A DNA stretch of 64,000 nucleotides from a virus. The notes under the pieces were generated by a model, which had not been told where the DNA came from, searched no databases, and saw nothing but the letters and a program-made list of their open reading frames with translations. Shown here one piece after another: positions 6,998-64,000 of the stretch. The position numbers and the translations under genes were made by a program. The stretch lies in UHGV virus genome UHGV-1370141. The stretch is one strand, 5' to 3'. Numbering within the stretch: position 1 is the first letter of the stretch; every line of letters starts with the position of its first letter.

Positions 6998-7444
6998 TTA
7001 ACCCATTAAATGGATTACAACGTCTTTAGTTACTGAGTTTGCAAGTAAGCGGAAGAACTTCATGTAACGGAACATGCTAAAGAAAACCCCAGCGTCATCT
7101 ACAATGACAAGGCTGTATTTTTCCTTTTCTGTACCCATTTGGTAACCGCTGATTTGTGTGATGTTTTCCGGTAAGTCTTCGAGACCCAAACGGAATAGCA
7201 CATCGTCCTCTAAGAACCCTTTTGGGCTAACGAACAACACTTTCCCTTTATGGTTCTTAGCTAACTCGACACCAAAGTCTGTAAGCCCCATCTGCCTACC
7301 TGTACCGTAGCGGATAGTACGAAATTCAGATAAGGCATTGGGACCATAACGATCGGTAAACGGATTATCTTTAGAATCCAGATCGGTTAAACCTTTTGAT
7401 AATTCTTCTACTACGATGTTATAGTTAACATGAGTTTTAGACAT
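6998..7444 (-). CDS. Hypothetical protein (148 aa)
   Basis: ORF in - strand block, 30 nt upstream of thyA. Confidence 0.4.
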   Translation of the reverse strand: MSKTHVNYNIVVEELSKGLTDLDSKDNPFTDRYGPNALSEFRTIRYGTGRQMGLTDFGVELAKNHKGKVLFVSPKGFLEDDVLFRLGLEDLPENITQISGYQMGTEKEKYSLVIVDDAGVFFSMFRYMKFFRLLANSVTKDVVIHLMG

Positions 7445-7474
7445 TTTATCATACCTTTTTAATTAGGTGGTAAT

Positions 7475-8515
7475 TTATACTGCGACGGGGGCCGCAATAT
7501 GTGGATGAGCTTGATAACCAACTAATTCGAAGTCTTCGTATTTGTAATCGAAGATAGAATCCGGTTTACGTTTGATAACCAGTTTAGGTAACGGGTAAGG
7601 CTCACGTGTAAGTTGAAGTTTTGCTTGTTCCAGATGGTTAGAATACAGATGAACGTCTACACCACTATAAACCAACTCGTCTGGAACCATGTTCAGTTGT
7701 TGAGCAACGATGTATGTTAACAACGCGTACGAAGCGATGTTGAACGGTAAACCTAAGAATACGTCGTTTGATCGCATCAGGAAGAAACACGAAAGCTTAC
7801 GACGCGGAATACCTTCACGATCTAAAGTTTCATGAAGTCGTTCTTCATCATCAATATCTTCGTGTTTAATAAGCGGTGCGCTCGCAAATTTTTCCGGTTC
7901 GTTTACTTCGTACCATTCCAGTCTCTCAAGCAGTGACATTTCCGTTGTGTAGAATTGGAAGTAGTTGTGACACGGGTTAAGTGCCATATCGTCCAAGTCA
8001 CTTACGTTCCAGGCACTAACAATAATACGGCGGGAGTCAGGGTCTTCGAGAAGTTGTTGGATAACTTTGCTGATCTGGTCGTGAGATTTGCGATAAATAA
8101 CGATACTTTCTTCAGGGTTGTCCTTTGCAATAGTACCAACGTAGCGATAGCCTCGTTCTCTCAATACGTCTTTACTACGCTCGTCCCAAAGATAAACCAG
8201 TTTGGTATCCATCCATTCCCGCCACTGGTGTCCGTAGACAGGTCCTAATTCCCCTTCCGCATTCGCCCACTCGTTCCAGATTCTTACCCCATTCTCTTGC
8301 AGGTACTTCACGTTAGTGTCACCGTTCAAGAACCATAACAGTTCATGAATGATACTTTTCAGGTGAACCTTTTTCGTAGTAACTAATGGGAAACCTTCTT
8401 TCAGGTCAAAACGTAGTTGGCGACCAAATACAGAAAGTGTCCCTACACCTGTACGGTCTTTCTTAACAACGCCGTTATCCAGAATGTCTTGCATTAACGC
8501 TAAATACTGTTTCAT
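7475..8515 (-). CDS. thyA: Thymidylate synthase (ThyA type) with two insertions
   Basis: Near-identical blocks to E. coli ThyA: [87 protein letters not shown]. 346 aa versus 264 aa. Confidence 0.93.
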
Positions 8516-52321: not shown

Positions 52322-55300
52322 TTGATGAAAGCGTATCCTTACGATCCTCGGGGGACGAAAACCGAGAATCACTTCTTAGAGGAGCGTATCATCGGGTCAG
52401 AAAACAACAACGACCGGGTGGTGATTTTAGACCATCGCCCGTTCTTTGAAGACTTAGTCGTCAGACAACCAGGTTCAACCACCCCACTGAGCCGTGGGGT
52501 GGACTACGAACTGCAATATCAGCTGACGGAACTGGATGACTCGGTAGCAGCCAACGTGTATTGTGGGGTACACCTTATCAACCCATCCATTAAAGGTATT
52601 GTAACCTTTGAAGGACAAATGCTCGGCGGTACGTTCTACGACCCGTTCGTTGACATGCTCGACGAGTTGGTGAAATATTTGAATAACCCAGTCAGTGCAG
52701 ACTGGCTGTTGTTAGACGGTAGACCGTCATTATACCCAGCTACGCCTGCGGCAACGTCCTGGGCGGATTTGCTGAACAAAAAATACTTAGCGTCAGCGAT
52801 TCACGATATTGAGTTGAAAACCGATGACGCTAACCAGCTAATTAAAGATAAATTAGCCGAAGTTAAAGCGCTAGTGACTGCGTTGGGGAAAGAAATTGAA
52901 GCGTTTAACTACCCAGCACATATCGCCGCGACGAACCCGCACGAAACCACGAGCGCACAAATTAACGCCCATCCCGTTAACCTGAAAACACCTGACACCT
53001 TTATGGCGTACGGGTTAAAGTTGAAAGCGTTAACGGATGAACTGAAAGCGTTTCGTTTACCACAGTCAGTTATTGACACGTATATCTCCCACTGGATTTC
53101 TTCGGAAGTACGGGGCGTGTTTAACTGTACGGTGTCTGGAAACCGCGCACAATTCCGTTCGAAAAACGGTGAGTCAGAAATCATTTTTGCGAATGATGGC
53201 TTTACGTTAAAATCCAACGGTTCTGTGGTATTAGCGGTAGGGCATCTGGAAGGCACAGGTGCGGGGCGTTACATTAACTGGCGTGCGGGTAAAAACACGT
53301 TACGCATCGAGTCAACCGGTGACGCTTTAGGGATGAACAAACTCACCCTGAACGGTAACCCGTTGTTGACCACCACAGCGCTGATGGAGTATCAGCAAGA
53401 CCCTGATGCTGGCGGGAGTGGCGGTAGCGATCCTGATGACTCCAAAGTGTATATCGAAGGCCGTAACGGGATTAGTTTTACCGGTAAAGGTTCTCGTGCC
53501 GATCCCATCGTGGGGACTATCGACCCGACGAAAGCGACCACCGCTGAAAAAGGTGTTGTTAAGCTTAAAACCGGTAAAGGCACAGAAACGGTTGGGGTTG
53601 CTGCAACACCTGCGTCATTAACGCCGTATTCAACCGACTTATCAGGGTACGTGACTAAAACGACCATGATTAACGGTAAGCCGATGAACGACGGTTCCAG
53701 GACAATCACGAAAGCTGACCTGGGATTAGGGCAAGCGGATAACACCGCAGACCTTGACAAACCGTTGTCTACTGCACTGAATGCTTCGGTTAGTGGTTTA
53801 GCAGATGTTGGCCACCATCACGACTGGTCAGAGTTAGGCATTTATAAAGCCTCGCAGACGGTTTACGGTATCGGTCGTTACGCAACTAACCAGAATGGCT
53901 TAGTTGAAAACCGTGCAGTGGTACCGAACATCCTAAAAGAGCTTTCAGCACGTTTAGATGTGGTTGCTGCCGCAATTGCGAATGCGAAAGAAGGTACGGT
54001 AACTGATTTTGCTGCTGTGAAAGGTGCAGACTGGCGTTTTAATAGCCAGGGTACGGCAATCTCCGTTCAGGATTTGAAATATTTCTATTTGCTAAATGGT
54101 GAAAAGGCCGACGGTGTCGTTACCGGCGCGATTGACCTGCAAACCACCCCGATGTTTAACTGGTTCTCACCGAACAACCAGCTTGAGCTGACTTGGCCTA
54201 CGGGGAAAGTTAGTAGGGGTACTGGGATTAGTTGGGATGGAATTGTTGATCCTCCAACAATGGGGTTTCAGTCAGTTCCGGTAGGTAAAACCGCTATACA
54301 GATGGGTGACCAGTCAGTTGTTACGGTGCTGGCAAAAACACGGGTCAAAGCTTATCAGAATAGGCTGTTTGTTTACGCCGCTGGCGGTGGAATGATAACC
54401 GTTTATGTAAATGGTGTTGTGGCTGCTACCGGTGAATCTCCGTTGTTAATGAACTACACAACGTCGTCAGATGTTGAAAATTACACAATCGCTGTTAAAG
54501 CAGAATGTAGCGATACGGCTAAGTCCGCAGCGGTACAGTTTGAAGTTTACGATGGCGATTACCCTGTTTACTTCAGTGGCCCTGAAACACACGTAGAGCT
54601 TCTCCAGGAGTTTGTTACCACGCACGTAGGGATTCGTCACTATTTGTACGTTAACATGCTCACAGGCTCTCTATATTCGCGTGCTGAACCGATTCAGAGC
54701 ATCGCAGTTGATCCTGAACGTGGTTATATCGGTTACGTTGATATTGTTGCTGGTGAGAATTACGCGAATAAAACGGTAGGGTTCGAAACCACGTTTGATT
54801 TCGGGAAAAGTGCCGAGGTTAGTGAACACATCGACACGCGTAAAGCGCACGGACTCAGTTCTGTGGACTGGGCGTTAACGGATAACCCACGTTTGCCGTT
54901 ATTAAACCGTGCTATTGCCGAACCGAGAGCGTGTATCTTTAGGAAAGCGTTAGCAACCGGTACAGGCGATGTTTTCCATCTTGTCAGTCGTGGTCTTTAT
55001 ACTTACGCACACAACCAAAACGTGAAGTCCAGTCTTCAGTACGTTGTGATTCCTGAAGGTGCTACACCGTATTGCTGGTTTACACCGTTTAACCCGAAAG
55101 AAAACAACGCACCGACTTTCGAAGGTTCGTTTGCGTTTGACGTTGACGACGTCGGTGGGACGCAAGCCCTTGCTGCTGCGCCGGATTTGGTTCTATGCTC
55201 GTCAACGCAAGGGAGTAGCGTTAAACGTCGCTATCTGCGCATTGACCTAACTGCCAAAGCGTGTAAGCTGGGGATTGGTTCCCGTTCAGATTCTGCCGTT

Positions 55301-56506
55301 ACTGACATTCCGTTGGTAATGGAGGAGTCTGGGGAAACAGCGGTGAATGCAACGTTTAAGGACGTTTTGTTCAACGGTGAAGAAACGAATGCTGCGATTC
55401 TCGATTTGATTGGCTGGGGTGCCGCCCGAGATAAAATCTCTGCAAACCATGCACCTCGTGGGATGATTCGTTACCGTTATAACGTAAGTACGCGTGTGTT
55501 ACGTTTAGCGTTGTCGTTCTCGCAGTTTGGGACGACGACAGTTAAACAACGTCAGTTGGAAATTCAATTCCCGTTCGACTTAGTGGATTATTTCACCGGT
55601 GACGGAATAGGATTATCGTTTAAAGAACTGAGCGCGAAATGCCGAGTAACGATTAGCCATGCGTTGATTGATCCGGTTACGAACAACATCGACATTGATA
55701 AGTATCATTACTTACGTTCGTTGTTTGAGTCGTATTTGGATTCATCCGTTGGGTATTTGGCTGATAACAAAGACGCTGATTATAGTCAGTCTGTGATTGA
55801 CCCTGCGACTTATGAGATTAGTCAAAAATACCGTGCCACGGAGAGCATTGCCTTGCCAACTGGTCAGGGAAGTGTTGCGGTTTCTCACGATGGGCAGTTA
55901 CCTGCGCAGTTCTTTGACCGTAAACTGTCTCGTGGTGCGTTGATGGCGAAGAACAACGAACTGCACACTTCCTGGAACAATGTGTGGAGTACGACTAAGG
56001 TTGCTGCAAGTCGTTATCGTCACAAACTCATTCTCCGTTTTGCACAAGGTGTTGATAAACAGCAATACCGAGTTGCAAAAGTGACGGGAACGATAAAAAG
56101 TAACTGGCCAGGTAAAGTGATTATCGGCGACGCTGGGAAAGACCCATTCTTAGCGTCTACCGATAGCGCAGAGTTTGCTCTGTCAACCAGTTCTGATGCT
56201 GGTAAAGCGATTAGTATCACTGCCACTGACTTACGCGTGGGTCAGGACATCTATATTGTCTTAGACCCGCCAGGTAATAATCCAGAAGGTTATGAACTTA
56301 ACTTTACCTGTTCGTTAGACGTGACTGATGAGCAAAGCACTCGTCAGGATCAGCTTAATGCGCAGAGCTTCGAACTGCGTAGCGGTGAAAAGCAGTTCTT
56401 AATGGAGAAACGCAATCCGTACCATATCACGAGTAAAGCGTGGAAATGGATACTTTCTGTACTGAAACGAGAACTTAACGGGAAGCAGTTAGGGGATCGT
56501 ACTTAG
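52322..56506 (+). CDS. Tail fibre/tailspike-like receptor-binding protein 2 (1394 aa)
   Basis: GGAG SD; N-terminal HRPFFEDLVV...RGVDYELQ; GGSGGS linker; TAEKGVVKLKTGKG...TETVGVAATPASL repeat flavour seen in fibre proteins. Confidence 0.6.
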   Translation: MMKAYPYDPRGTKTENHFLEERIIGSENNNDRVVILDHRPFFEDLVVRQPGSTTPLSRGVDYELQYQLTELDDSVAANVYCGVHLINPSIKGIVTFEGQMLGGTFYDPFVDMLDELVKYLNNPVSADWLLLDGRPSLYPATPAATSWADLLNKKYLASAIHDIELKTDDANQLIKDKLAEVKALVTALGKEIEAFNYPAHIAATNPHETTSAQINAHPVNLKTPDTFMAYGLKLKALTDELKAFRLPQSVIDTYISHWISSEVRGVFNCTVSGNRAQFRSKNGESEIIFANDGFTLKSNGSVVLAVGHLEGTGAGRYINWRAGKNTLRIESTGDALGMNKLTLNGNPLLTTTALMEYQQDPDAGGSGGSDPDDSKVYIEGRNGISFTGKGSRADPIVGTIDPTKATTAEKGVVKLKTGKGTETVGVAATPASLTPYSTDLSGYVTKTTMINGKPMNDGSRTITKADLGLGQADNTADLDKPLSTALNASVSGLADVGHHHDWSELGIYKASQTVYGIGRYATNQNGLVENRAVVPNILKELSARLDVVAAAIANAKEGTVTDFAAVKGADWRFNSQGTAISVQDLKYFYLLNGEKADGVVTGAIDLQTTPMFNWFSPNNQLELTWPTGKVSRGTGISWDGIVDPPTMGFQSVPVGKTAIQMGDQSVVTVLAKTRVKAYQNRLFVYAAGGGMITVYVNGVVAATGESPLLMNYTTSSDVENYTIAVKAECSDTAKSAAVQFEVYDGDYPVYFSGPETHVELLQEFVTTHVGIRHYLYVNMLTGSLYSRAEPIQSIAVDPERGYIGYVDIVAGENYANKTVGFETTFDFGKSAEVSEHIDTRKAHGLSSVDWALTDNPRLPLLNRAIAEPRACIFRKALATGTGDVFHLVSRGLYTYAHNQNVKSSLQYVVIPEGATPYCWFTPFNPKENNAPTFEGSFAFDVDDVGGTQALAAAPDLVLCSSTQGSSVKRRYLRIDLTAKACKLGIGSRSDSAVTDIPLVMEESGETAVNATFKDVLFNGEETNAAILDLIGWGAARDKISANHAPRGMIRYRYNVSTRVLRLALSFSQFGTTTVKQRQLEIQFPFDLVDYFTGDGIGLSFKELSAKCRVTISHALIDPVTNNIDIDKYHYLRSLFESYLDSSVGYLADNKDADYSQSVIDPATYEISQKYRATESIALPTGQGSVAVSHDGQLPAQFFDRKLSRGALMAKNNELHTSWNNVWSTTKVAASRYRHKLILRFAQGVDKQQYRVAKVTGTIKSNWPGKVIIGDAGKDPFLASTDSAEFALSTSSDAGKAISITATDLRVGQDIYIVLDPPGNNPEGYELNFTCSLDVTDEQSTRQDQLNAQSFELRSGEKQFLMEKRNPYHITSKAWKWILSVLKRELNGKQLGDRT

Positions 56507-56581
56507 GACAGGCTGCCTGCGGGCAGTTGTGTGTCCGTAGGTAACCCCTCCCTGTAATGGGGAGGGGTATCCATTTTATTT
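56507..56581 (+). terminator. Rho-independent terminator (two hairpins; ACCCCTCCC-tgtaat-GGGGAGGGGT plus T-tract)
   Basis: Hairpin then ATCCATTTTATTT directly after the stop at 56506. Confidence 0.55.
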
Positions 56582-56601
56582 AAAAAGTAGGAGTCTTTAC
56601 G

Positions 56602-59600
56602 ATGCCGAGAGAAGACGCGGCGCAGTTTAACGGTACGCTAAGCACAGCAACGTACCCTAACCGATTTAATGTGGTCATTCCACCTGAAGGACCTTTTTAT
56701 CGTATCGGATTAAAACTCACAGTAGCCGACGATACCGCGCCTAACGGACGTCGTACTCTGATTGAGGGGTTGGACTACTATTTAGGCTATTACTTTAAAG
56801 AACTCGCAGAAGCTGAACAAGATCAGATTTATGGCGGGTTTATGTTGCTTACTGCAACAGAAATCGAATATGAGATTTTAGGGGTAGCACGTCAATACCG
56901 TGTGCCGCAATCTGAAATCGGGAAGTTCTTAGTTCGTACTGACCTGAAAGACCCACGTAACGTGGACTGGTCTGAACTAATGGCGTATGCGCCGGTTATT
57001 CAGCCTATCGACCCGCCTGCTAACTTAGAAGAAGCGATTCTGAGGGATGAGGTTGTTAAGGCGTTAGAAGACATTCGCAAGAAAATCATTAAGCGTTCTA
57101 CGGAATTAGATGCTGCGTTCAGTGAAGTCACTAACCTGATTTACGAGAACGGGAAAAAGGTTTTCGACGAAGAATTATACCAGCATCACCGTAACCCTAA
57201 CGCGCATCATTACACCACCGATGACATTGCCGCTCTCCCCGTATTAGGACGTGCTGTTGACGCTACAAAAGCGTTTGGGTTGACGATTGACGAGTTGGCT
57301 ACGCTGATGGGTTCAGCGGGTATTGAGCAATCGGACGTTGACCAGTTAATGGGTGAAGCCCTCGGCACCGTTTACGGTCGATGGGGCACCACGAACGGTA
57401 ATGAATTAACGTTTAAAACGTCAGGTGGCCACATCATCAGTATTCGTGGTGATAAGTGGTTAATTACCTCGCCACAACCGTTGGTGATTAAAGCAGACCA
57501 GGACAACAACGAATCGGGTTTAGCGGTTGAATTCAGTGCGGGTCTGAATACGCTTTGGGTTCACTCGGGGTCAGAACAGGATGTATTAGCGCCAGTTTAT
57601 AACTCCGTGTATCTGGTTACGCCAGAAATGGTGAACATGTACCTGACGTCAGTAACGTTGCTCGAAGCAAACGCATATTTCAAAGCGTCAGACACTGTAA
57701 AACCGCACGGTACCGCAAAACAGACTAACCCGGTTACGTTAAACGCGAATATTCCTACAGCGACCGAATCAGTTTATGGGTTGTTCTCGATTACGAATAT
57801 CTCCACGTCTGCGGCGTTAGGTACTGCTATCTCCCAGAAAGCCGTAACCGAACTAAAAGACCGTTTGGACCTGTACGTTGACGATGACTATACCGTTAAC
57901 GGTAAAGGGTTTGTTAAAACAGGTGACAATATGGTGTTAACCTTAACGAAAACCGATTTCGGTATCGATAGGATGGATAACACCACGCCAAGTGCTAAGC
58001 CGGTGACGAAAGCGTTAGCGAACGTGTTGAAAAACAAGAGTTTGAAGACGCACACCCACACTACTGCTGATTTGGATAACGTTCCAATTGGTAGTGCAAC
58101 GGTTGACGGTATCTTACAGCTGTGGGATGCGATTGACACCACTAACGATAAAGCTGTCACGTCACGTCAAGGCTGGTTGTTCGCAAAAGAGATTAAGAAA
58201 GTCTCTGATAAACTCAATACCATCTTACCGGCATGGACGGTAGGTGGTGCGAAGTTCGGTAACAAGAACTTCTTACCTATTCCAGCGTTAGGCAACTACG
58301 CAGGCTACACCAAAAACCAGTCCTACCAGAAAGGGATCGTTGGGTATCAGCAGGGTAAGGTTTATTCACTCCGTAACGGTTCTAACGGCGTTCCAGGTAC
58401 GGAAGCTATCTATTACGGCTATGCTGACATTAACACGTCAAACGCGTTTGTAAATCCGCAGCAAACCTCAGTGAAATATCACCCTGCCGGGATGAGTAAA
58501 TATCCTGGCGTGACCCTAAAAGCGATATTGATTGGTGGGCAGGAAGCGATTATTTGTCTGGGTTCTGACAATAACCGATATTTGGTGCTGTTCAATGGTT
58601 CGATGGACCACACTAAGCACACGGTGGTATGTCGTGTTACGATGCCTATGTACCGTAACGACAACCCCGGCGGTACTACGGAACAGACCTGGAATCCCCG
58701 GCCAGAAGCTGACGATGTTGTGTTAGTTGACGATCACGTTTATCTTCTCCGTTCTTCGGTAAGTAACATTGCTTATGGCGTGGCAGCATGGCGTTTACGT
58801 AAAGCCGATTTGACTACTAATACTGAGTTAGAGTTTGAACGCGTAACCCTAACCGGTGAAATGGGGCAATTCGGAGATAACCTCTGGTTACGATTTGGTC
58901 AGAAGACCGAAGAGTCGCAAACGGGTCAATTCTTTACATTTCTCACGCCGGAGGGTCGTGCTAAATGGACGATCGGACGTAGCTTTGTTCACGGTCCAGA
59001 ATGTAACCACGCCTGTGCTGTACGCGAAAGCGTGATTCGTGTGAACCATATGCCTACTGTGTGGTTTGCAGCGGCCGACGGTACGACGATTAATTTCCGT
59101 CAATGGGCAACAAGTTTTACAATCGATACGTTAACGGGAAAAGTTACGTTAGAAGGAGGCGAACGCTTCCCCATCAAGGCTGATGCTACTACACTCTCGT
59201 TCGCGGATGGTTCAACTGTAGAAACCAGTCGTAAGTGGGGTGGTGGTCTGGCAAACAACCGTTGTTTCGCGACATATGCTAAACCCAACGGTACAGGAAT
59301 GATGCTTTCCTGTTGGCAGATTAACGATGCGGACCAAATGCCTAATGTTTCTATTAAAGGAACACAAGGCAAAGAGCTTTTCGATTATCTGCGTTATGAT
59401 AACCCAAACAACACCTCGGGCGAAGGAACGTTTACCTGGGATAAAGGTCGCGGTTCTATTTATACCATCGGTCTTTCCCATCCGGTCGGCATTGGCGGTT
59501 CGAATAAGGTGTGGTTGTCTAATCCACGTAACCGTTACACCATCGAAGTAGAAGTTGATCCGAACAAACCTTACGATGTTCCAGGTTATGGCGGATACGG

Positions 59601-61785
59601 TCCGAACAACAACCGTCGTGAAGTCGATGCGACGCTTTACGAGCAGCTTAGCTGTATGGCTGCGTGCATGACTCCTGAGGAGCGTCACGGACAGTTAAAC
59701 GGTTGGTATTTGACCAAAGCAGAAACGTTCCCGTATCGCAACATCTACGGTAACTTCGCGTTGTCTTCCGAACGCTTAACGCTAGAAGAAGCCGATCGCC
59801 AGAAAATGATTCGGATGATCGTTGACGGTGCGCCATCTGGTCAAGCAAATGGTTACGCGAACGAACGTATTAGTGCTGCCCATCAAACCGGTAATGCATT
59901 GTTTGCTCTTTGGATGTTGGGTATCAACACCGTGTGCGAATTTGACTTGTTGCAAGTTTCGTGCATGAAAACCTCAAGTAACGGACGTCGAATTCTTGAC
60001 ATCTATTACTTCATGGTGAGTCCATCTAAAGAGAACGGCTACTTACGGTTCAACTCAGCCACCTTTAAGTTGGTGGACTGGTTCTTAGACCTCGATTATG
60101 GTTTAAGTTATCAGTCTCTGAGGGAAGAAGCGGGTAATAAAACGCGACGTGTAGGCCAGCCAATTTTTGCTTCTGCCGACGGTGTAAACTTCGGTCTATG
60201 GCTACCTTATACGCTGACAATACGGAATATCGGGGACCTAAATGCTTTGGGTTACGCTGCGAAGTACACCTTCGACCCTGGGTCGGGTTGGACTCGCGTT
60301 CCTGGTAAGTCACAGTTGCGTCAGATGGCCCCTGCTCATAATCCCGAATCAGGTTGCTACATGGGTGCGGGTAATTGGGACAAGATGGCGTTGATTTTCT
60401 CTAAAGCTGACCGTGTTTTCTGTTCAGGTAACGCGTATACAGCCGCAGAGTTCGTTAACGACACGACGTTCTCAACGGGAGGTCAGGCTGTTATTATTGC
60501 TGGTGTGGAAACAGCGGAAGGTTGGATTCTGTATTTGACAGAAGAAGTCAAATTAGATTTCGGTAGCAGCAGTTACACACTCCCAACGTGGTCTGTGGAT
60601 TTAAGCAGCGAGTTCCCGTCCAATCACGCTAACCAGACGTTCTACGTACACGCTGAGGTGTCGGGTTCTACCGCACAATACCGCATCGGTTTGGAGCAGT
60701 TAGCCGATACTTCAACAAGACTGTTCGTCGGGACAGTAACCACCGATTCCAGCCGTATTACTGATATCAGTATCGACAAAGTAAAACGCTTGGGTCGTGT
60801 AAAAGAGCTGGAAGACCACGCAGCAATTATCGACCAACACGATGTTGCAGCAGCGTTTGACAGAAAGACGGGTCCTCTATTAACGCTGGTTAACAAGCCC
60901 GTTAAAGCACCTACGGCGTCTGCGTCGAAAGGCGAAGGGTATGTTGACGGTCAGAAATGGGGTTCACTGTCTGGCATCACGACGCGTCCTAAGTTACCAA
61001 TTCAGGAAACGTATTCGGGTTATAAGAGTGTGGCCAGAGTAGCGTATGAGAACTGCGCCGACCAATTCTGGCAGAAAGCGGTAGCTGCTAACATTACGAC
61101 AGCCACTGCTTCTGAGAACTCGCAGGCAGCGTCTGCGAACATGAAATGGATAGGTGCGTATACGAAACCGACTACCGGAACGTATGCTTACTTAGCATTG
61201 AGTTTGCGCGTTCAAGTGCCAGGTAATCCAGGAACGGCGAATCGTGCTCTGAAGCTGAGACTTGCTGCACCAACCGGTATTGTTGAAGCTCGGTATGCAA
61301 TAAACCAGGCCGGTGGTACGATGAAAGAGCAGGACGTCACGTTAACCGCCAACCAGTACCTGGAAAAAGAGCACAGTGGGTTTAAACCTGCCGAGGAGGT
61401 TCGTGTTCATGTCACGTTCGTTATTCCGAAGAACGAATATGAAAGTTATCGTACGAAGTTTGGGGCGGTACAGTTGATTGACGTCGAGTCTGGTACTACA
61501 ATCAAACAGGCAGATATTGATACGCCGTTCTTTGTCTTTACGGACACTGAACTGTCTGCACAATCCGGTTTGGTGTATAAAGCGGTCAAGGGTCAGTTTG
61601 ACAATCTCCCGAGTGAACCTACACTCATTGTGCGAGATGGTCAGACCGGAACTAACCCACCGGTGAAATCGTCTTACGCTGACGGTACGCTAACGGTTTA
61701 CGTAGCGACCGCGTACGATGGTGTGAATCCGGCAGAAACTCGCGATATCGACAAACTCCAGTTCAATCTTATGTTTACATCTTAA
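56602..61785 (+). CDS. Tail fibre/tailspike-like receptor-binding protein 3 (1727 aa)
   Basis: AGGAG SD; N-terminal PEGPFYRIGLKL...EGLDYYLG anchor motif; very large. Confidence 0.6.
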   Translation: MPREDAAQFNGTLSTATYPNRFNVVIPPEGPFYRIGLKLTVADDTAPNGRRTLIEGLDYYLGYYFKELAEAEQDQIYGGFMLLTATEIEYEILGVARQYRVPQSEIGKFLVRTDLKDPRNVDWSELMAYAPVIQPIDPPANLEEAILRDEVVKALEDIRKKIIKRSTELDAAFSEVTNLIYENGKKVFDEELYQHHRNPNAHHYTTDDIAALPVLGRAVDATKAFGLTIDELATLMGSAGIEQSDVDQLMGEALGTVYGRWGTTNGNELTFKTSGGHIISIRGDKWLITSPQPLVIKADQDNNESGLAVEFSAGLNTLWVHSGSEQDVLAPVYNSVYLVTPEMVNMYLTSVTLLEANAYFKASDTVKPHGTAKQTNPVTLNANIPTATESVYGLFSITNISTSAALGTAISQKAVTELKDRLDLYVDDDYTVNGKGFVKTGDNMVLTLTKTDFGIDRMDNTTPSAKPVTKALANVLKNKSLKTHTHTTADLDNVPIGSATVDGILQLWDAIDTTNDKAVTSRQGWLFAKEIKKVSDKLNTILPAWTVGGAKFGNKNFLPIPALGNYAGYTKNQSYQKGIVGYQQGKVYSLRNGSNGVPGTEAIYYGYADINTSNAFVNPQQTSVKYHPAGMSKYPGVTLKAILIGGQEAIICLGSDNNRYLVLFNGSMDHTKHTVVCRVTMPMYRNDNPGGTTEQTWNPRPEADDVVLVDDHVYLLRSSVSNIAYGVAAWRLRKADLTTNTELEFERVTLTGEMGQFGDNLWLRFGQKTEESQTGQFFTFLTPEGRAKWTIGRSFVHGPECNHACAVRESVIRVNHMPTVWFAAADGTTINFRQWATSFTIDTLTGKVTLEGGERFPIKADATTLSFADGSTVETSRKWGGGLANNRCFATYAKPNGTGMMLSCWQINDADQMPNVSIKGTQGKELFDYLRYDNPNNTSGEGTFTWDKGRGSIYTIGLSHPVGIGGSNKVWLSNPRNRYTIEVEVDPNKPYDVPGYGGYGPNNNRREVDATLYEQLSCMAACMTPEERHGQLNGWYLTKAETFPYRNIYGNFALSSERLTLEEADRQKMIRMIVDGAPSGQANGYANERISAAHQTGNALFALWMLGINTVCEFDLLQVSCMKTSSNGRRILDIYYFMVSPSKENGYLRFNSATFKLVDWFLDLDYGLSYQSLREEAGNKTRRVGQPIFASADGVNFGLWLPYTLTIRNIGDLNALGYAAKYTFDPGSGWTRVPGKSQLRQMAPAHNPESGCYMGAGNWDKMALIFSKADRVFCSGNAYTAAEFVNDTTFSTGGQAVIIAGVETAEGWILYLTEEVKLDFGSSSYTLPTWSVDLSSEFPSNHANQTFYVHAEVSGSTAQYRIGLEQLADTSTRLFVGTVTTDSSRITDISIDKVKRLGRVKELEDHAAIIDQHDVAAAFDRKTGPLLTLVNKPVKAPTASASKGEGYVDGQKWGSLSGITTRPKLPIQETYSGYKSVARVAYENCADQFWQKAVAANITTATASENSQAASANMKWIGAYTKPTTGTYAYLALSLRVQVPGNPGTANRALKLRLAAPTGIVEARYAINQAGGTMKEQDVTLTANQYLEKEHSGFKPAEEVRVHVTFVIPKNEYESYRTKFGAVQLIDVESGTTIKQADIDTPFFVFTDTELSAQSGLVYKAVKGQFDNLPSEPTLIVRDGQTGTNPPVKSSYADGTLTVYVATAYDGVNPAETRDIDKLQFNLMFTS

Positions 61786-61819: not shown

Positions 61820-63025
61820 GTGGCCATGGCCTCCATTGTTTATCAATATCCTTTAGATTTAACGGGCTCGCTAACGTCTAACGCTGTGGAGCGTCAGATT
61901 ACGTTAGGTACAGGTAAAGTAAACCGTGCTTTTGCTTTTCCTGACGGCCCGTTCTTTGCGGACACGTTCCGTTTACGTGTTGCTAACCGACCGGATGCAA
62001 CCTACGAACGTGGTACCGATTATGAGTTGATTTTTGCACACCCGACTTATGAAAAGCTGACTAAAAACCGCGAGATTGTTATGGCGGTGGTGGTCACTAA
62101 CACAGCGATTCCAACAGATATTACGGTATCTGCGCAGGTCGTTGGTGGACCACAGTCTGCGAACATCGTGGCTATCGAACAGGCGATTGCTGAATTAAAC
62201 CTCGATAACCGTACGGTTGCGTTTAAAGACCTGCGTAACGTACCAGATACATTCCCTTCTGCACCGACGTATAAAGACGTAGGTGACATCTACGGTTTTG
62301 AATATATCATTACCGTATTGGCGGGTATTAAAGATGCGATCAGTTCCGGTGACGCAGTACAGTTAGAGAACATTAAAGCGATTTTAGAAAGCCTGAAAAA
62401 TGACTTCTTAGACGCTTTAAATGCACACATTAACGCAACCGGTAACGTTCACCATCTTGATATTCATCAGGTTAACGGGTTAACAGAAACTGAAATCCGT
62501 GCGCTTATTCGTGACGTCCAGTCTGCCATCGACGCAACGATTACGGAAATCAATGCACTGAAGAAAGCGGACGAAGCTTTAGGTAAACGTATTGACGCTG
62601 TTGTCAACTCTCTGGAAGCGTGGAACGACCAACTTAACGTGGTTGCTCAAAACTACCAGAAAATGGCCTTAGCGTTGGCGAACCTGAACTCGTTAGTGTT
62701 ACAGCTGCAAAAGAGCATTAACGATCTGAACACGAAACTGAATCAGGTTATTCAGCGTGTTGATGCGTTAGAGCAACAGGGTCAAGAAACCGATCAGAAA
62801 ATCGATCAGCTACAACAAAACCTGGATGCGCTTAAACAGCAGGTTAACAATAACACGAACGCAATCAGTCAAGCGAACCAGAACCTACAAAACCACATTG
62901 CGGCAGATGACCCGCACACCGGTTATCTCCACAAGAGATACGGTGGTGTGGTTCAGGCCCCAGTACACGTTAACGCTAACCTGACGTCTCGTGATGACGT
63001 ACAGGCGGAAGCGGGTACGAAATAA
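61820..63025 (+). CDS. Fibrous protein 4 (401 aa) with shared N-terminal anchor and long coiled coil
   Basis: N-terminal FPDGPFFADTFRLRV...RGTDYELIF; residues about 230-350 are heptad-rich (LEAWNDQLNVVAQNYQKMALALANLNSLVLQLQKSINDLNTKLNQVIQRVDALEQQ). Confidence 0.55.
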   Translation: MAMASIVYQYPLDLTGSLTSNAVERQITLGTGKVNRAFAFPDGPFFADTFRLRVANRPDATYERGTDYELIFAHPTYEKLTKNREIVMAVVVTNTAIPTDITVSAQVVGGPQSANIVAIEQAIAELNLDNRTVAFKDLRNVPDTFPSAPTYKDVGDIYGFEYIITVLAGIKDAISSGDAVQLENIKAILESLKNDFLDALNAHINATGNVHHLDIHQVNGLTETEIRALIRDVQSAIDATITEINALKKADEALGKRIDAVVNSLEAWNDQLNVVAQNYQKMALALANLNSLVLQLQKSINDLNTKLNQVIQRVDALEQQGQETDQKIDQLQQNLDALKQQVNNNTNAISQANQNLQNHIAADDPHTGYLHKRYGGVVQAPVHVNANLTSRDDVQAEAGTK

Positions 63026-63034
63026 TTTAATTAC

Positions 63035-63078
63035 AGGAGGAACTATGCTTATGGGCGTAGTCCTCCTCTTTTTTATTT
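63035..63078 (+). terminator. Rho-independent terminator (AGGAGGA...TCCTCCT plus CTTTTTTATTTT)
   Basis: Inverted repeat plus long T-run directly after the stop at 63025. Confidence 0.55.
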
Positions 63079-63090
63079 TAAGGATACGGA

Positions 63091-63483
63091 ATGGCGATTA
63101 GTGTTAAAAACGTACGCGACCGAATCACCAACGTAGAGAATCAGATGGCGACTGGGCCACGCATAGATCCTCAGGTTGCGTCAAAGGCGCACAATGCCGC
63201 AGACTCTTTTTCAGGTTGGACGCCAGGTCGTCTAGACTGTGGCGGTAGCTGTAGCTGGACGTGCTCGAACGGCTGCACACATGGTTGTACGAGTTGTTCA
63301 GGTACGTGTACATCTGTGTGTGTAGGAAGTTGTTCGTCTGCTTGCGGTAATCAGTGTACCGGATGTTCCGCTACATGCTCTGGTGGGTGCACTGGTTGTA
63401 GCGCTACATGCAGCGGTAGATGTTCCGGGCGTTGTAGCTCGGGTTGTAGTGGCGCGTGTGCGTCTTGTTCAGGGCCGACTTAA
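63091..63483 (+). CDS. Leader plus Cys-rich repeat peptide (130 aa); candidate RiPP precursor
   Basis: AAGGA SD; first about 45 aa Cys-free, then about 25 Cys at nearly regular C-x2-3-C spacing separated by S/G/T (CGGSCSWTCSNGCTHGCTSCSGTCTSVC...). Immediately upstream of a radical-SAM ORF. Confidence 0.55.
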   Translation: MAISVKNVRDRITNVENQMATGPRIDPQVASKAHNAADSFSGWTPGRLDCGGSCSWTCSNGCTHGCTSCSGTCTSVCVGSCSSACGNQCTGCSATCSGGCTGCSATCSGRCSGRCSSGCSGACASCSGPT

Positions 63484-63507
63484 TTTAACAGATAGGTATT
63501 ATCTCTG

Positions 63508-64000
63508 ATGATAGAATTAACCACACCGACAGTATCCGATCAATTGTATTCTGAAGCAAGAACGTTAAATGTTATTACTACATCCAAATGTAATCTGGAC
63601 TGTAGTTTCTGCGGCGGAGCCTATTACATGCATAGAGAGGATACAACCGCAGAAGTACAAAAGAAAAGTATTATCGAGGCGCTGGAAAATAACCCAACCA
63701 TTACAAACATTCAATGGTCAGGGGGTGAACCATTACTCGCTTCGCGTAAAATTGATACCCTTATAGAAGAGATAAGGGAGAAGTATCCTCGTTGCGATCA
63801 TTACCTCTATACCAACGGTTTAAAGATGCGTAAAACGCATCTCCCGTTGTTAAAGGGTTTCGATAGTATCTTTTTTAGCATGGACGGATTCAAAGAATCA
63901 GAGCGCCCATTCATGCGGATTATCGAAGAAAAACAATACGAGGTTTTGGAGACAATTTACGAGTTGAAAAATATTCGTACTTGGGCAGTCTTGACGCGAG
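63508..64000 (+). CDS. Radical SAM enzyme (N-terminal about 164 aa; 3' end beyond window)
   Basis: Manual translation from ATG near 63508: MIELTTPTVSDQLYSEARTLNVITTSKCNLDCSFCGG (CxxxCxxC cluster) ... NIQWSGGEPLL (SAM glycine-rich motif) ... YTNG ... FFSMDG. No stop before 64000. Not in the ORF track because it is open-ended. Confidence 0.7.
   Translation, partial: MIELTTPTVSDQLYSEARTLNVITTSKCNLDCSFCGGAYYMHREDTTAEVQKKSIIEALENNPTITNIQWSGGEPLLASRKIDTLIEEIREKYPRCDHYLYTNGLKMRKTHLPLLKGFDSIFFSMDGFKESERPFMRIIEEKQYEVLETIYELKNIRTWAVLTR

What the first reader, a model, noticed from the sequence alone, without database searches (positions are those of the whole stretch)
63091..64000. Leader plus hyper-Cys-rich repeat peptide immediately followed by a radical-SAM enzyme: RiPP-like pair at the end of the receptor-binding module
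Seen in sequence: a 130-aa ORF with a Cys-free N-terminal part of about 45 aa (leader-like) and an about 85-aa C-terminal region with about 25 Cys at near-periodic spacing (CSxxC-type repeats, S/G/T-rich). Twenty-four nt later, in the same frame, an ORF begins whose N-terminus carries CNLDCSFC (CxxxCxxC), WSGGEPLL, YTNG and SMDG. Established knowledge: this arrangement is how sactipeptide/ranthipeptide-type RiPPs are organised in bacteria (rSAM maturase making thioether or other crosslinks on a Cys-rich core). Inference: a phage-encoded post-translationally modified peptide. Its own SD and position just after the terminator of four receptor-binding genes would fit a role at the cell surface or as an effector, but that is speculation. 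Alternative readings: the rSAM could be an unrelated enzyme (for example an RNR-activase-like, QueE-like or viperin-like protein) and the Cys-rich protein a metal-binding or structural protein.
Basis: partly seen in the sequence, partly recalled or inferred. Interest (0 to 1): 0.85.

Follow-up and report, generated by a model that had tools for sequence, protein, structure and literature searches.

The report
Radical-SAM maturation module for phage fibres
A giant phage encodes a small protein with a cysteine at every fourth position next to radical-SAM enzymes, and the same cysteine-repeat piece sits at the far end of tail-fibre proteins in unrelated phages, always beside the same enzymes, so these enzymes probably modify part of the host-recognition apparatus, not a free antibiotic-like peptide.

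Summary
Window 63091-63483 encodes a 130-aa protein with 21 Cys (16 of 20 spacings are exactly 4). A radical-SAM (rSAM) ORF starts 24 nt later, in the same frame, at 63508.

The window's own contig shows the full operon: fibre | pepA | rSAM1a | pepB | pepC | p295 | rSAM1b | SPASM-type rSAM2 | p190 | p224. Seventeen further SPN3US-like loci keep this order. Only one of them (a 99% relative) also has rSAM1a, so the adjacent enzyme is a lineage-specific duplicate of the small partner rSAM, not the main maturase.

rSAM2's best family match is the CXXX-repeat-target maturase (TIGR04115), below its cut-off. Next come PapB and CteB, both thioether-forming.

The "leader" is homologous to the segment preceding a C-terminal Cys-repeat in 200-570-aa tail-fibre-like proteins. 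In myo-, sipho- and podophage contexts, those fibre genes are followed by rSAM1-like, p295-like and rSAM2-like genes. All 23 loci found by searching with rSAM2 show this, as do five found with the peptide.

Best reading: a conserved four-part system in which rSAM enzymes cross-link a Cys-repeat fibre module. The RiPP-like pairing is supported. A cleaved leader and a diffusible peptide are not. Chemistry and virion location are untested. I found no published description.

The parts
61820..63025 (+). Upstream 401-aa fibre gene, the orthologue of SPN3US gp167 (a virion protein). It is the last of the baseplate-fibre genes preceding the module.
   Evidence: ORF list. About 70% nt identity to SPN3US gp167, annotated 'virion structural protein 20'. 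gp167 was detected in SPN3US virions by mass spectrometry (PMC5694885 supplement).
63035..63079 (+). Terminator-like hairpin (63035-63067) plus U tract (63068-63079), between the fibre gene and pepA.
   Evidence: RNA fold gives -20.9 kcal/mol, z = -3.25, and 0 of 200 shuffles fold as well. The consensus scan partly picked it up.
63080..63084 (+). Shine-Dalgarno-like AAGGA, 6 nt before the pepA ATG.
   Evidence: Read directly from the sequence.
63091..63483 (+). pepA: a 130-aa Cys-repeat protein, a member of phrog_6085.
   Evidence: ORF. phrog_6085 at 4.9e-40 over the full length. Purifying selection in this frame. N-terminal part (aa 1-56) found in 60 phage records by tblastn; full-length orthologues in all 18 related loci.
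63091..63237 (+). pepA N-terminal 49 aa. It has two predicted helices (aa 5-19 and 27-37) and the start of the junction motif N-A-x-x-[FL]-x-G-x7. It is homologous to the shaft segment that precedes the Cys-repeat in tail-fibre proteins of other phages.
   Evidence: AF2 secondary structure, low confidence. Alignments with an invariant Gly42. phrog_6085 matches start at model positions 7-35 inside larger fibre proteins.
63238..63468 (+). Cys-repeat region, aa 50-126. It begins with the family hallmark C-x3-C-S-W-x-C-x3-C and holds 21 Cys at spacings of 4 (16 times) or 3 (4 times). It is the presumed rSAM substrate.
   Evidence: Spacing count. Invariant C50, C54-S55-W56, C58 and C62 across jumbo-phage paralogues and distant fibre proteins. 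An exact 32-nt repeat with pepB lies at 63235-63266.
63508..64000 (+). rSAM1a: the first 164 aa of a 303-aa small radical-SAM enzyme. It continues to window-equivalent position 64419. It is a lineage-specific duplicate of rSAM1b.
   Evidence: Pfam Radical_SAM at 1.6e-13. Full-length sequence from L012/L029. 60% identical to rSAM1b. Invariant C28, C32, C35 plus C245, C248, C274. Present in L029 and L014 only.
63589..63612 (+). The CNLDCSFC (CxxxCxxC) radical-SAM [4Fe-4S] binding motif of rSAM1a, aa 28-35.
   Evidence: Sequence. Invariant in the alignment of 7 rSAM1 proteins.

Best explanation
pepA is a small stand-alone version of a tail-fibre C-terminal module: a short helical shaft segment, a conserved G-x7-C-x3-CSW-x-C junction, and about 20 CXXX repeats. 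It belongs to a conserved four-part phage system made of (i) a Cys-repeat fibre module, (ii) a small rSAM enzyme (rSAM1, with three extra invariant C-terminal Cys), (iii) a p295-family protein of unknown fold, and (iv) a SPASM-type rSAM (rSAM2) related to thioether-forming peptide maturases.

The proposed mechanism is as follows. In the infected cytoplasm, the rSAM enzymes recognise the junction/shaft segment. They then convert the flexible Cys/Ser/Gly/Thr repeat into a covalently cross-linked, rigid, protease- and reduction-resistant structure. The most likely chemistry is Cys-S-to-carbon thioether bonds. The modified module becomes part of, or caps, the baseplate-fibre apparatus.

Shown: the gene content, the homology, the strict co-occurrence, and that the enzymes themselves are not virion proteins.

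Inferred: that the Cys-repeat is the substrate, that the chemistry is thioether formation, and that the product sits on the virion.

In the window's phage, an extra diverged copy of rSAM1 (rSAM1a) has been inserted directly after pepA. It is possibly dedicated to pepA.
For: The full operon was recovered from the window's own contig.

The order fibre | pepA | pepB | pepC | p295 | rSAM1 | rSAM2 | p190 | p224 is identical in 18 loci of related phage genomes and viral contigs, with rSAM2 identity from 61 to 100%.

rSAM2's best hit among all NCBIfam families is TIGR04115 'CXXX-repeat target' maturase (1.8e-34, model positions 3-344 of 359). Next is PapB (1.5e-32). Its best PDB hit is CteB, 5WGG (3.6e-11). 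The SPASM Cys residues are invariant.

pepB and the SPN3US peptides touch the CXXX-repeat target model TIGR04114 at 17-19.6 bits against a cut-off of 20.

An exhaustive phmmer search of pepA against 1.84 billion proteins gave 41 hits. Most are 200-475-aa proteins with tail-fibre-like N-termini and the same junction plus Cys-repeat at the C-terminus.

Every informative neighbourhood of those proteins has rSAM1-like, p295-like and rSAM2-like genes directly downstream. These are L039, L040 (a lambda-like prophage), L045 (an SU10-like podovirus), L044, and the P0017 contig.

The reverse test used rSAM2 alone as bait in IMG/VR. All 23 loci carry an adjacent Cys-repeat gene with the CSW junction, or matching it by phmmer (L051), plus rSAM1-like and, except in L048, p295-like genes. 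This includes 5 contigs that are not SPN3US-like.

rSAM1 and rSAM2 are fused in one ORF in L044.

SPN3US virion mass spectrometry lists gp167-170 but not gp161-166. The enzymes are therefore non-structural, as expected for maturases (PMC5694885 supplement).
Against: There is no experimental evidence for any modification.

pepA, pepB and pepC are unannotated in SPN3US, so they were never searched for in virion proteomes. Their presence on the virion is unproven.

rSAM2 scores far below the TIGR04115 and PapB trusted cut-offs (120 vs 350 bits; 113 vs 340 bits).

The core contains no Asp, Glu or Asn-type acceptor motif like those of known ranthipeptides.

The AF2 model of pepA is uninformative (pLDDT 44).

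A C-terminal module of a fibre protein could be a cleaved assembly domain and not a virion tip.

pepC keeps only 2-4 Cys, so not all paralogues need extensive modification.
Confidence: 0.55

Rival explanations
1. Classical RiPP. pepA, pepB and pepC are precursors whose 49-aa leader is removed after rSAM cross-linking. This releases a diffusible sactipeptide- or ranthipeptide-like effector at lysis, for example an antibacterial, a signalling peptide or an anti-defence peptide.
For: The architecture is a leader-like helical N-terminus plus an unstructured Cys-rich core. The genes are adjacent to rSAM enzymes related to PapB, CteB and the CXXX-repeat maturases. Distant rSAM2 relatives in other viral contigs (L031, L032) sit next to short 68-80-aa Cys-repeat peptides. 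Lysis would remove the need for an exporter.
Against: The 'leader' plus core is found as the C-terminal end of bona fide tail-fibre-like proteins of 200-570 aa. No peptidase, exporter or RRE was found. The GG after the first Cys is not conserved (CNG, CSNG, CSG in homologues). The N-terminal part and the core are equally constrained (pN 0.22 vs 0.23 in most comparisons), unlike the usual pattern of a conserved leader and a variable core. The module is fixed inside fibre or tail gene blocks in every lineage seen.
Confidence: 0.15
2. The Cys-repeat is a metal-binding, Fe-S-binding or disulfide-rich structural domain that needs no rSAM chemistry. The neighbouring rSAM enzymes would act on something else, for example another fibre protein, a cofactor or a host molecule.
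For: Cys at every fourth position with small residues resembles metal-thiolate proteins. pepA itself does not reach any curated rSAM-target model. The chemistry is entirely untested.
Against: Co-occurrence is seen in every informative neighbourhood, in both search directions and in unrelated phage types. rSAM2's closest families are all peptide or protein maturases, and the top one is defined by CXXX-repeat targets. The rSAM1-rSAM2 fusion and the tight operon structure point to one pathway.
Confidence: 0.12
3. The Cys-repeat proteins and C-terminal modules are assembly factors, acting as intramolecular or trans-acting chaperones or trimerisation clamps for fibres. They would be removed or left behind and be absent from mature virions.
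For: C-terminal domains of many tail fibres are autocleaved chaperones (established knowledge of Peptidase_S74-type domains). The module lies next to a DUF4376 protein; tail-assembly-chaperone genes lie further downstream in the Erwinia relatives. pepC has almost no Cys-repeat yet is conserved.
Against: No protease domain or cleavage motif was found. A dedicated three-enzyme maturation pathway seems a large investment for a discarded chaperone. The Cys positions are strictly conserved over about 80 residues.
Confidence: 0.13

Closest known systems
CXXX-repeat peptide / radical-SAM-SPASM maturase system (NCBIfam TIGR04114 target and TIGR04115 maturase; Pfam PF27846 tSAM_targ_Cxxx_rpt). To my knowledge it is defined in silico only and not characterised biochemically.
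   Same: The substrate has Cys at every fourth residue (16 of 20 spacings). A SPASM-type rSAM is encoded next to it. TIGR04115 is the best-scoring family for rSAM2 with a full-length alignment: 120 bits for the window phage, and 182-186 bits for the siphophage and other versions. PF27846 is recorded as a faint or weak hit on several fibre homologues.
   Different: Scores are well below the trusted cut-offs (350 and 20 bits). The target is not a short free peptide. It is a 130-aa protein, or the C-terminus of 200-570-aa tail-fibre proteins, with a specific CSW junction. There are two different rSAM enzymes plus a p295-family protein. The system is encoded by phages inside tail or fibre gene blocks.
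Ranthipeptide maturases PapB (freyrasin) and CteB (SCIFF/thermocellin), which are thioether-forming SPASM enzymes.
   Same: These are the second-best family (PapB, 113 bits) and the best solved-structure match (CteB 5WGG, 3.6e-11) for rSAM2. The substrates are Cys-rich repeats modified at many sites.
   Different: There is no N-terminal RRE: CxxxCxxC starts at about residue 21. There is no Cys-x3-Asp or other acceptor motif in the core. The substrate is much longer and related to fibres. No protease or exporter is present. Scores are below cut-off.
His-Xaa-Ser system (HxsA repeats with the paired rSAM enzymes HxsB and HxsC).
   Same: It pairs a long SPASM rSAM with a short rSAM next to a repeat-peptide gene. 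rSAM2 hits HxsB (77 bits). rSAM1 hits HxsC (43-49 bits), which is the top hit for the L040 rSAM1.
   Different: The repeats are CXXX, not HXS. All scores are far below the cut-offs (370 and 268 bits). There is no HxsD equivalent.
QhpD/QhpC (quinohemoprotein amine dehydrogenase): an rSAM enzyme that cross-links Cys residues of a structural protein subunit.
   Same: It is a conceptual precedent for an rSAM/SPASM enzyme installing thioethers in a protein that stays part of a larger assembly and is not a secreted natural product. QhpD is among the rSAM2 hits at 58-97 bits.
   Different: The substrate and context are unrelated, and the scores are below the cut-off (453 bits).

Membership tests
CXXX-repeat target / rSAM maturase system (TIGR04114 + TIGR04115) | The target has Cys at every fourth residue in tandem. 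| tested here: met
   21 Cys; spacings of 4 (16 times) and 3 (4 times). Cys columns are invariant in orthologues.
CXXX-repeat target / rSAM maturase system (TIGR04114 + TIGR04115) | The target reaches the TIGR04114 trusted cut-off (20 bits). | tested here: not met
   Window pepA has no hit at E <= 0.1. pepB scores 17.6 bits. SPN3US pepA scores 19.6 bits.
CXXX-repeat target / rSAM maturase system (TIGR04114 + TIGR04115) | The maturase reaches the TIGR04115 trusted cut-off (350 bits). | tested here: not met
   rSAM2 of the window phage scores 119.8 bits. It is the best of all families and aligns to model positions 3-344 of 359. Non-jumbo versions score 182-186 bits.
CXXX-repeat target / rSAM maturase system (TIGR04114 + TIGR04115) | The target gene is adjacent to the rSAM/SPASM gene. 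| tested here: met
   They lie in the same operon in all 18 loci of the related jumbo-phage group and in every non-jumbo locus with enough flank.
Ranthipeptide / sactipeptide RiPPs (PapB, CteB type) | A SPASM rSAM with auxiliary-cluster cysteines, related to thioether synthases. | tested here: inconclusive
   The SPASM-type Cys residues (C272, C280, C290, C332, C335, C341, C344, C366 in alignment A5) are invariant. PapB scores 113 bits against a cut-off of 340. CteB gives 3.6e-11. Pfam SPASM was not detected.
Ranthipeptide / sactipeptide RiPPs (PapB, CteB type) | A RiPP recognition element (RRE), either on the maturase or as a PqqD-like partner. | tested here: not met
   CxxxCxxC begins at residue 21-28 in all three rSAM enzymes, so there is no N-terminal domain. 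No PqqD/RRE family hit was found in any operon protein. The p295 fold is unmatched.
Ranthipeptide / sactipeptide RiPPs (PapB, CteB type) | A cleavable N-terminal leader, with a peptidase and/or exporter in the cluster. | tested here: not met
   No peptidase or transporter family was found in the nine operon proteins. The 'leader' is an internal segment in homologous fibre proteins.
Ranthipeptide / sactipeptide RiPPs (PapB, CteB type) | Cys-S-to-carbon thioether cross-links in the product. | not testable with these tools
   This needs mass spectrometry or NMR of the co-expressed product.
Non-peptide rSAM families (NrdG, QueE, MoaA, viperin) | Full-length rSAM1a reaches the family cut-off and the partner genes are present. 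| tested here: not met
   NrdG2 34.8 vs 131 bits; QueE 37.8 vs 260; MoaA 46.6 vs 284; viperin 44.4 vs 180. No NrdD, queuosine or Moa genes lie nearby.
phrog_6085 (phage protein family of unknown function) | A full-length match to the family profile. | tested here: met
   pepA 4.9e-40 (positions 1-129 to 1-128 of 129), pepB 8.3e-39, pepC 1.5e-24. 10 of 10 larger fibre-like proteins match with their C-terminal ~100 aa.
Phage tail-fibre proteins (virion component) | Presence in the virion, or homology to fibre domains. | tested here: inconclusive
   Five of the ten homologues scanned carry tail-protein domains at the N-terminus: phrog_910 at 2.4e-20, phrog_972 at 2.7e-12, phrog_5073 (tail fibre) and phrog_4120 (minor tail protein). 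pepA itself is only the terminal module. It is absent from the SPN3US proteome database because it is unannotated.

The most novel reading that the evidence does not exclude
Phage tail fibres, in myo-, sipho- and podoviruses and including nucleus-forming jumbo phages, carry a distal Cys-repeat module that is covalently cross-linked by a dedicated pair of phage-encoded radical-SAM enzymes plus a protein of novel fold. This would be the first virion structural or receptor-binding protein matured by RiPP-type radical chemistry. It might form an intra-chain or inter-chain thioether 'staple' that makes the fibre tip resistant to proteases and reductants.
Probability: 0.45. Interest if true: 0.9.

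Novelty: new variant of a known kind. Interest (0 to 1): 0.78.

Why it matters
Radical-SAM/SPASM maturases are known for making small secreted natural products. Here the same kind of enzyme appears to be hard-wired into phage host-recognition modules.

If confirmed, this would add a new class of post-translational modification to virion biology. It would explain why radical-SAM genes sit inside structural gene clusters of giant phages, which one genome paper (PMC12390700) noted as 'highly unusual' and left unexplained. It would give RiPP enzymologists a large, repetitive, genetically tractable substrate. It would also matter for engineering receptor-binding proteins, because fibres carrying this module would need their maturases to be co-transferred.

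The work also corrects annotations. In the SPN3US records read in detail, pepA is unannotated, pepC is unannotated or has a non-ATG start, and pepB is called in the wrong frame.

Tried and rejected
- Megablast against phage genomes found nothing. Only the distant-mode search worked.
- Word-indexed protein searches with the rSAM fragment and with pepA returned very few hits.
- Extending the contig through Logan failed. All four contigs end at window 63600, probably because of the rSAM1a/rSAM1b repeat. A second IMG/VR pattern scan returned the same 5.4-kb block. The contig was finally reached with rSAM2 as a protein bait.
- The single-sequence AF2 model of pepA is uninformative (pLDDT 44).
- p190 and p224 have no counterparts in the non-jumbo modules, so I do not count them as core parts of the system.
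- Ten literature searches found no description of the system. The Haft and Basu 2011 paper was not in the held library under the id I tried from memory.
- NrdG, QueE, MoaA and viperin were rejected on scores.
- The alternative-frame ORFs over the repeat (63125-63313 on the minus strand, 63383-63508 on the plus strand) were rejected as artefacts of the repetitive codons.
Full report
**1. The observation**

Window 63091-63483 (+) is a 130-aa ORF. The first Cys is residue 50. The 20 Cys-Cys spacings are 4 (16 times) or 3 (4 times). The core is made almost only of C, S, G, T and A, and has no acidic residue after position 50.

The gene is real. Against five orthologues, non-synonymous divergence is 0.03-0.23 while synonymous sites are near saturation (0.55-0.88), in both the N-terminal 49 aa and the core. 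All Cys columns are invariant across 11 orthologues.

A terminator-like hairpin and U tract (63035-63079; -20.9 kcal/mol, z = -3.25) and an AAGGA site precede the ORF. Twenty-four nt after its stop, in the same frame, an ORF starts at 63508 with CNLDCSFC, GGEPLL, YTNG and SMDG. It hits Pfam Radical_SAM at 1.6e-13. Four independent metagenome contigs confirm the junction.

**2. Where it comes from and what lies beyond the window**

The region is about 70% identical at the nucleotide level to Salmonella phage SPN3US and related Erwinia, E. coli and Proteus jumbo phages.

An exact-pattern scan found the window's own contig, IMGVR_UViG_3300045988_078609 (224,831 bp). A protein-baited scan gave 17 kb around the site (L029). 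Window coordinate = L029 coordinate + 58,965.

The operon is:
- fibre (401 aa)
- pepA (130 aa)
- rSAM1a (303 aa; this is the truncated window ORF)
- pepB (132 aa, 20 Cys)
- pepC (69 aa, 4 Cys)
- p295
- rSAM1b (312 aa)
- rSAM2 (440 aa)
- p190
- p224 (DUF4376)

It ends at a bidirectional terminator-like hairpin.

In 18 loci of related phage genomes and viral contigs, the order fibre | pepA | pepB | pepC | p295 | rSAM1 | rSAM2 | p190 | p224 is invariant. Only L029 and its 99% relative L014 carry rSAM1a between pepA and pepB. rSAM1a is 60% identical to rSAM1b and keeps every invariant Cys: C28, C32 and C35, plus C245, C248 and C274.

**3. The enzymes**

Full-length rSAM1a does not belong to NrdG, QueE, MoaA or viperin. 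All of these score far below their cut-offs, and its best hit is PapB at 52 bits.

rSAM2 is a SPASM-type enzyme with invariant C-terminal Cys clusters. Its best family among 18,950 NCBIfam models is TIGR04115, 'radical SAM peptide maturase, CXXX-repeat target family' (119.8 bits, model positions 3-344 of 359, cut-off 350). Next are PapB (113 bits), the geopeptide maturase and HxsB. Its only PDB sequence match is CteB, the SCIFF thioether synthase (3.6e-11).

The peptides brush the CXXX-repeat target model TIGR04114 at 17-19.6 bits against a cut-off of 20.

The system therefore works like a Cys-repeat-peptide/rSAM maturase pair, but it fails the formal membership thresholds.

**4. The 'leader' is a fibre segment**

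pepA, pepB and pepC all belong to phrog_6085, a family of unknown function.

An exhaustive phmmer search of pepA against 1.84 billion representative proteins gave only 41 hits. Apart from jumbo-phage orthologues, most are 200-475-aa proteins. They end in ...N-A-x-x-L-[GN]-G-Q-x-P-x-Y-Y-[RD]-C-x-x-G-C-S-W-T-C-S-x-G-C... followed by CXXX repeats. In a joint alignment, Gly42, C50, C54-S55-W56, C58 and C62 of pepA are invariant.

All ten such proteins that I tested match phrog_6085 with their last ~100 residues, starting at model positions 7-35. That range lies inside what looked like a leader. In five of the ten, the N-terminal part hits tail-protein families: phrog_910 'tail collar fiber protein' at 2.4e-20, phrog_972, phrog_5073 and phrog_4120. 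One is also collagen-like.

A leader that is internal in homologues is not a disposable N-terminal leader, although it may still be the enzyme-recognition segment.

**5. Co-occurrence in both search directions**

Starting from the peptide:
- L039 has a 243-aa Cys-repeat fibre protein, then an rSAM1-like gene, a p295-like gene, an rSAM2-like gene (1.4e-56), a Collar-domain fibre and an endolysin.
- L040 is a lambda-like prophage tail block. It has a 475-aa coiled-coil fibre with the module, then an rSAM1-like gene, two p295-like genes, an rSAM2-like gene (1.5e-64) and lysis genes.
- L045 is an SU10-like podovirus with the same four genes.
- L044 has a collagen-like fibre, a p295-like gene and a single ORF that fuses rSAM1 and rSAM2.
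- The P0017 contig has a collagen fibre, a Cys-repeat protein and a Radical_SAM gene.

Starting from rSAM2 alone, 23 of 23 IMG/VR loci carry the Cys-repeat gene next to rSAM1-like and (except in L048) p295-like genes. These include five contigs that are not SPN3US-like, with fibres of 247-568 aa. GC content ranges from 0.32 to 0.58, so several host groups are involved.

p190 and p224 have no counterparts outside the jumbo phages. The core system is therefore four parts: the Cys-repeat fibre module, rSAM1, p295 and rSAM2.

**6. Virion evidence**

Published SPN3US virion mass spectrometry lists gp160 and gp167-170 but none of gp161-166 (PMC5694885 supplement). gp168-170 are baseplate or fibre candidates related to phiKZ gp131 (PMC5105663, PMC5694885).

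The rSAM enzymes and p295 are therefore not structural, as expected for maturases.

pepA and pepC are not annotated in SPN3US, and 'gp166/gp100' is the pepB region called in the wrong frame. The peptides were therefore never in the search database, and their location is unknown.

**7. Mechanism**

I commit to the following.
- The rSAM pair, possibly with p295 as adaptor or chaperone, modifies the CXXX repeat of a fibre-type protein in the cytoplasm.
- The most likely modification is multiple Cys-to-carbon thioether links, as made by the closest characterised relatives.
- The product is a rigid, covalently stapled element of the baseplate-fibre apparatus.

The co-occurrence and homology are shown. 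The substrate relationship is a strong inference. The chemistry and virion location are weaker inferences.

The three conserved paralogues might form a heterotrimer, as fibres are trimeric. That is speculation.

The rivals are a classical cleaved RiPP, a metal or disulfide domain with unrelated rSAM enzymes, and a discarded assembly chaperone. None is excluded, and each fits fewer observations.

**8. Novelty**

Ten full-text searches found no description of this system. One genome paper on an Aeromonas Chimalliviridae phage remarks that eight radical-SAM genes inside the structural cluster are 'highly unusual' and offers no explanation (PMC12390700).

The enzyme-substrate logic is a known kind. 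Its fusion to phage tail fibres, the two-enzyme-plus-p295 composition and the CSW junction appear to be new.

Noticed in passing
L001 7283-8312 (SPN3US NC_027402, reverse-complement locus); also L011 (JN641803): The SPN3US reference annotations miss pepA (7283-7675) and pepC (8106-8312). They call 'gp100/gp166' (7759-8094) in the wrong frame across pepB (7686-8090). tblastn shows 'none' annotated under the pepA N-terminal match in many of the 60 records that carry it.
   Followed up: yes
window 63508-64000 and L029 4543-5454 vs 7046-7984: rSAM1 is duplicated in the window phage and one 99% relative (L014) only. The copies are 73-78% identical at the nucleotide level, at a 2518-bp offset. All four Logan contigs carrying pepA end exactly at window 63600, inside this repeat. 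That is probably an assembly-graph break and not biology.
   Followed up: partly
window 63235-63266 (L029 4270-4301) and L029 5663-5694: An exact 32-nt repeat (GACTGTGGCGGTAGCTGTAGCTGGACGTGCTC, encoding DCGGSCSWTCS) is shared by pepA and pepB, although the genes are otherwise only about 45% identical at the protein level. This suggests gene conversion or very strong constraint on the junction.
   Followed up: no
L044 1773-3041: A single ORF has an rSAM1-like N-terminal half (CNMSCSWC) and an rSAM2-like second half (CNLRCTYC), cut by the contig end. This fusion argues that the two enzymes act together.
   Followed up: partly
L031 4075-5686; L032 7477-9083: Small viral contigs encode a distant rSAM2 relative (24% identity). 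It is directly preceded by two 68-80-aa peptides with Cys at every third residue (CXX repeats, 17-18 Cys) and no fibre-like part. This is a more classical RiPP-like variant.
   Followed up: no
L038 1299-3609 and 5988-7022: A 225-aa Cys-repeat protein (P0009) lacks the CSW junction and sits in a tail-fibre block. One gene further on is a protein with a SPASM-like C-terminus but no CxxxCxxC motif. A reverse transcriptase (RVT_1), possibly from a diversity-generating retroelement, lies nearby. The contig has low coverage, so frameshifts are possible.
   Followed up: no
[not shown]
   Followed up: partly
window 52322-61785: Two very large ORFs (1394 and 1727 aa) upstream are orthologues of SPN3US gp169 and gp168, the phiKZ gp131-like baseplate/fibre paralogue family. 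They carry repeated 'NPH/HxH'-type motifs typical of fibre proteins.
   Followed up: no
window 63125-63313 (-) and 63383-63508 (+): ORFs in other frames or on the other strand overlap pepA. The Cys-rich region is repetitive and stop-poor, and these ORFs are by-products of that. Several public records annotate exactly such frames instead of the real gene, for example Parshik gp178 and Proteus phage 7 QNN97585.
   Followed up: partly
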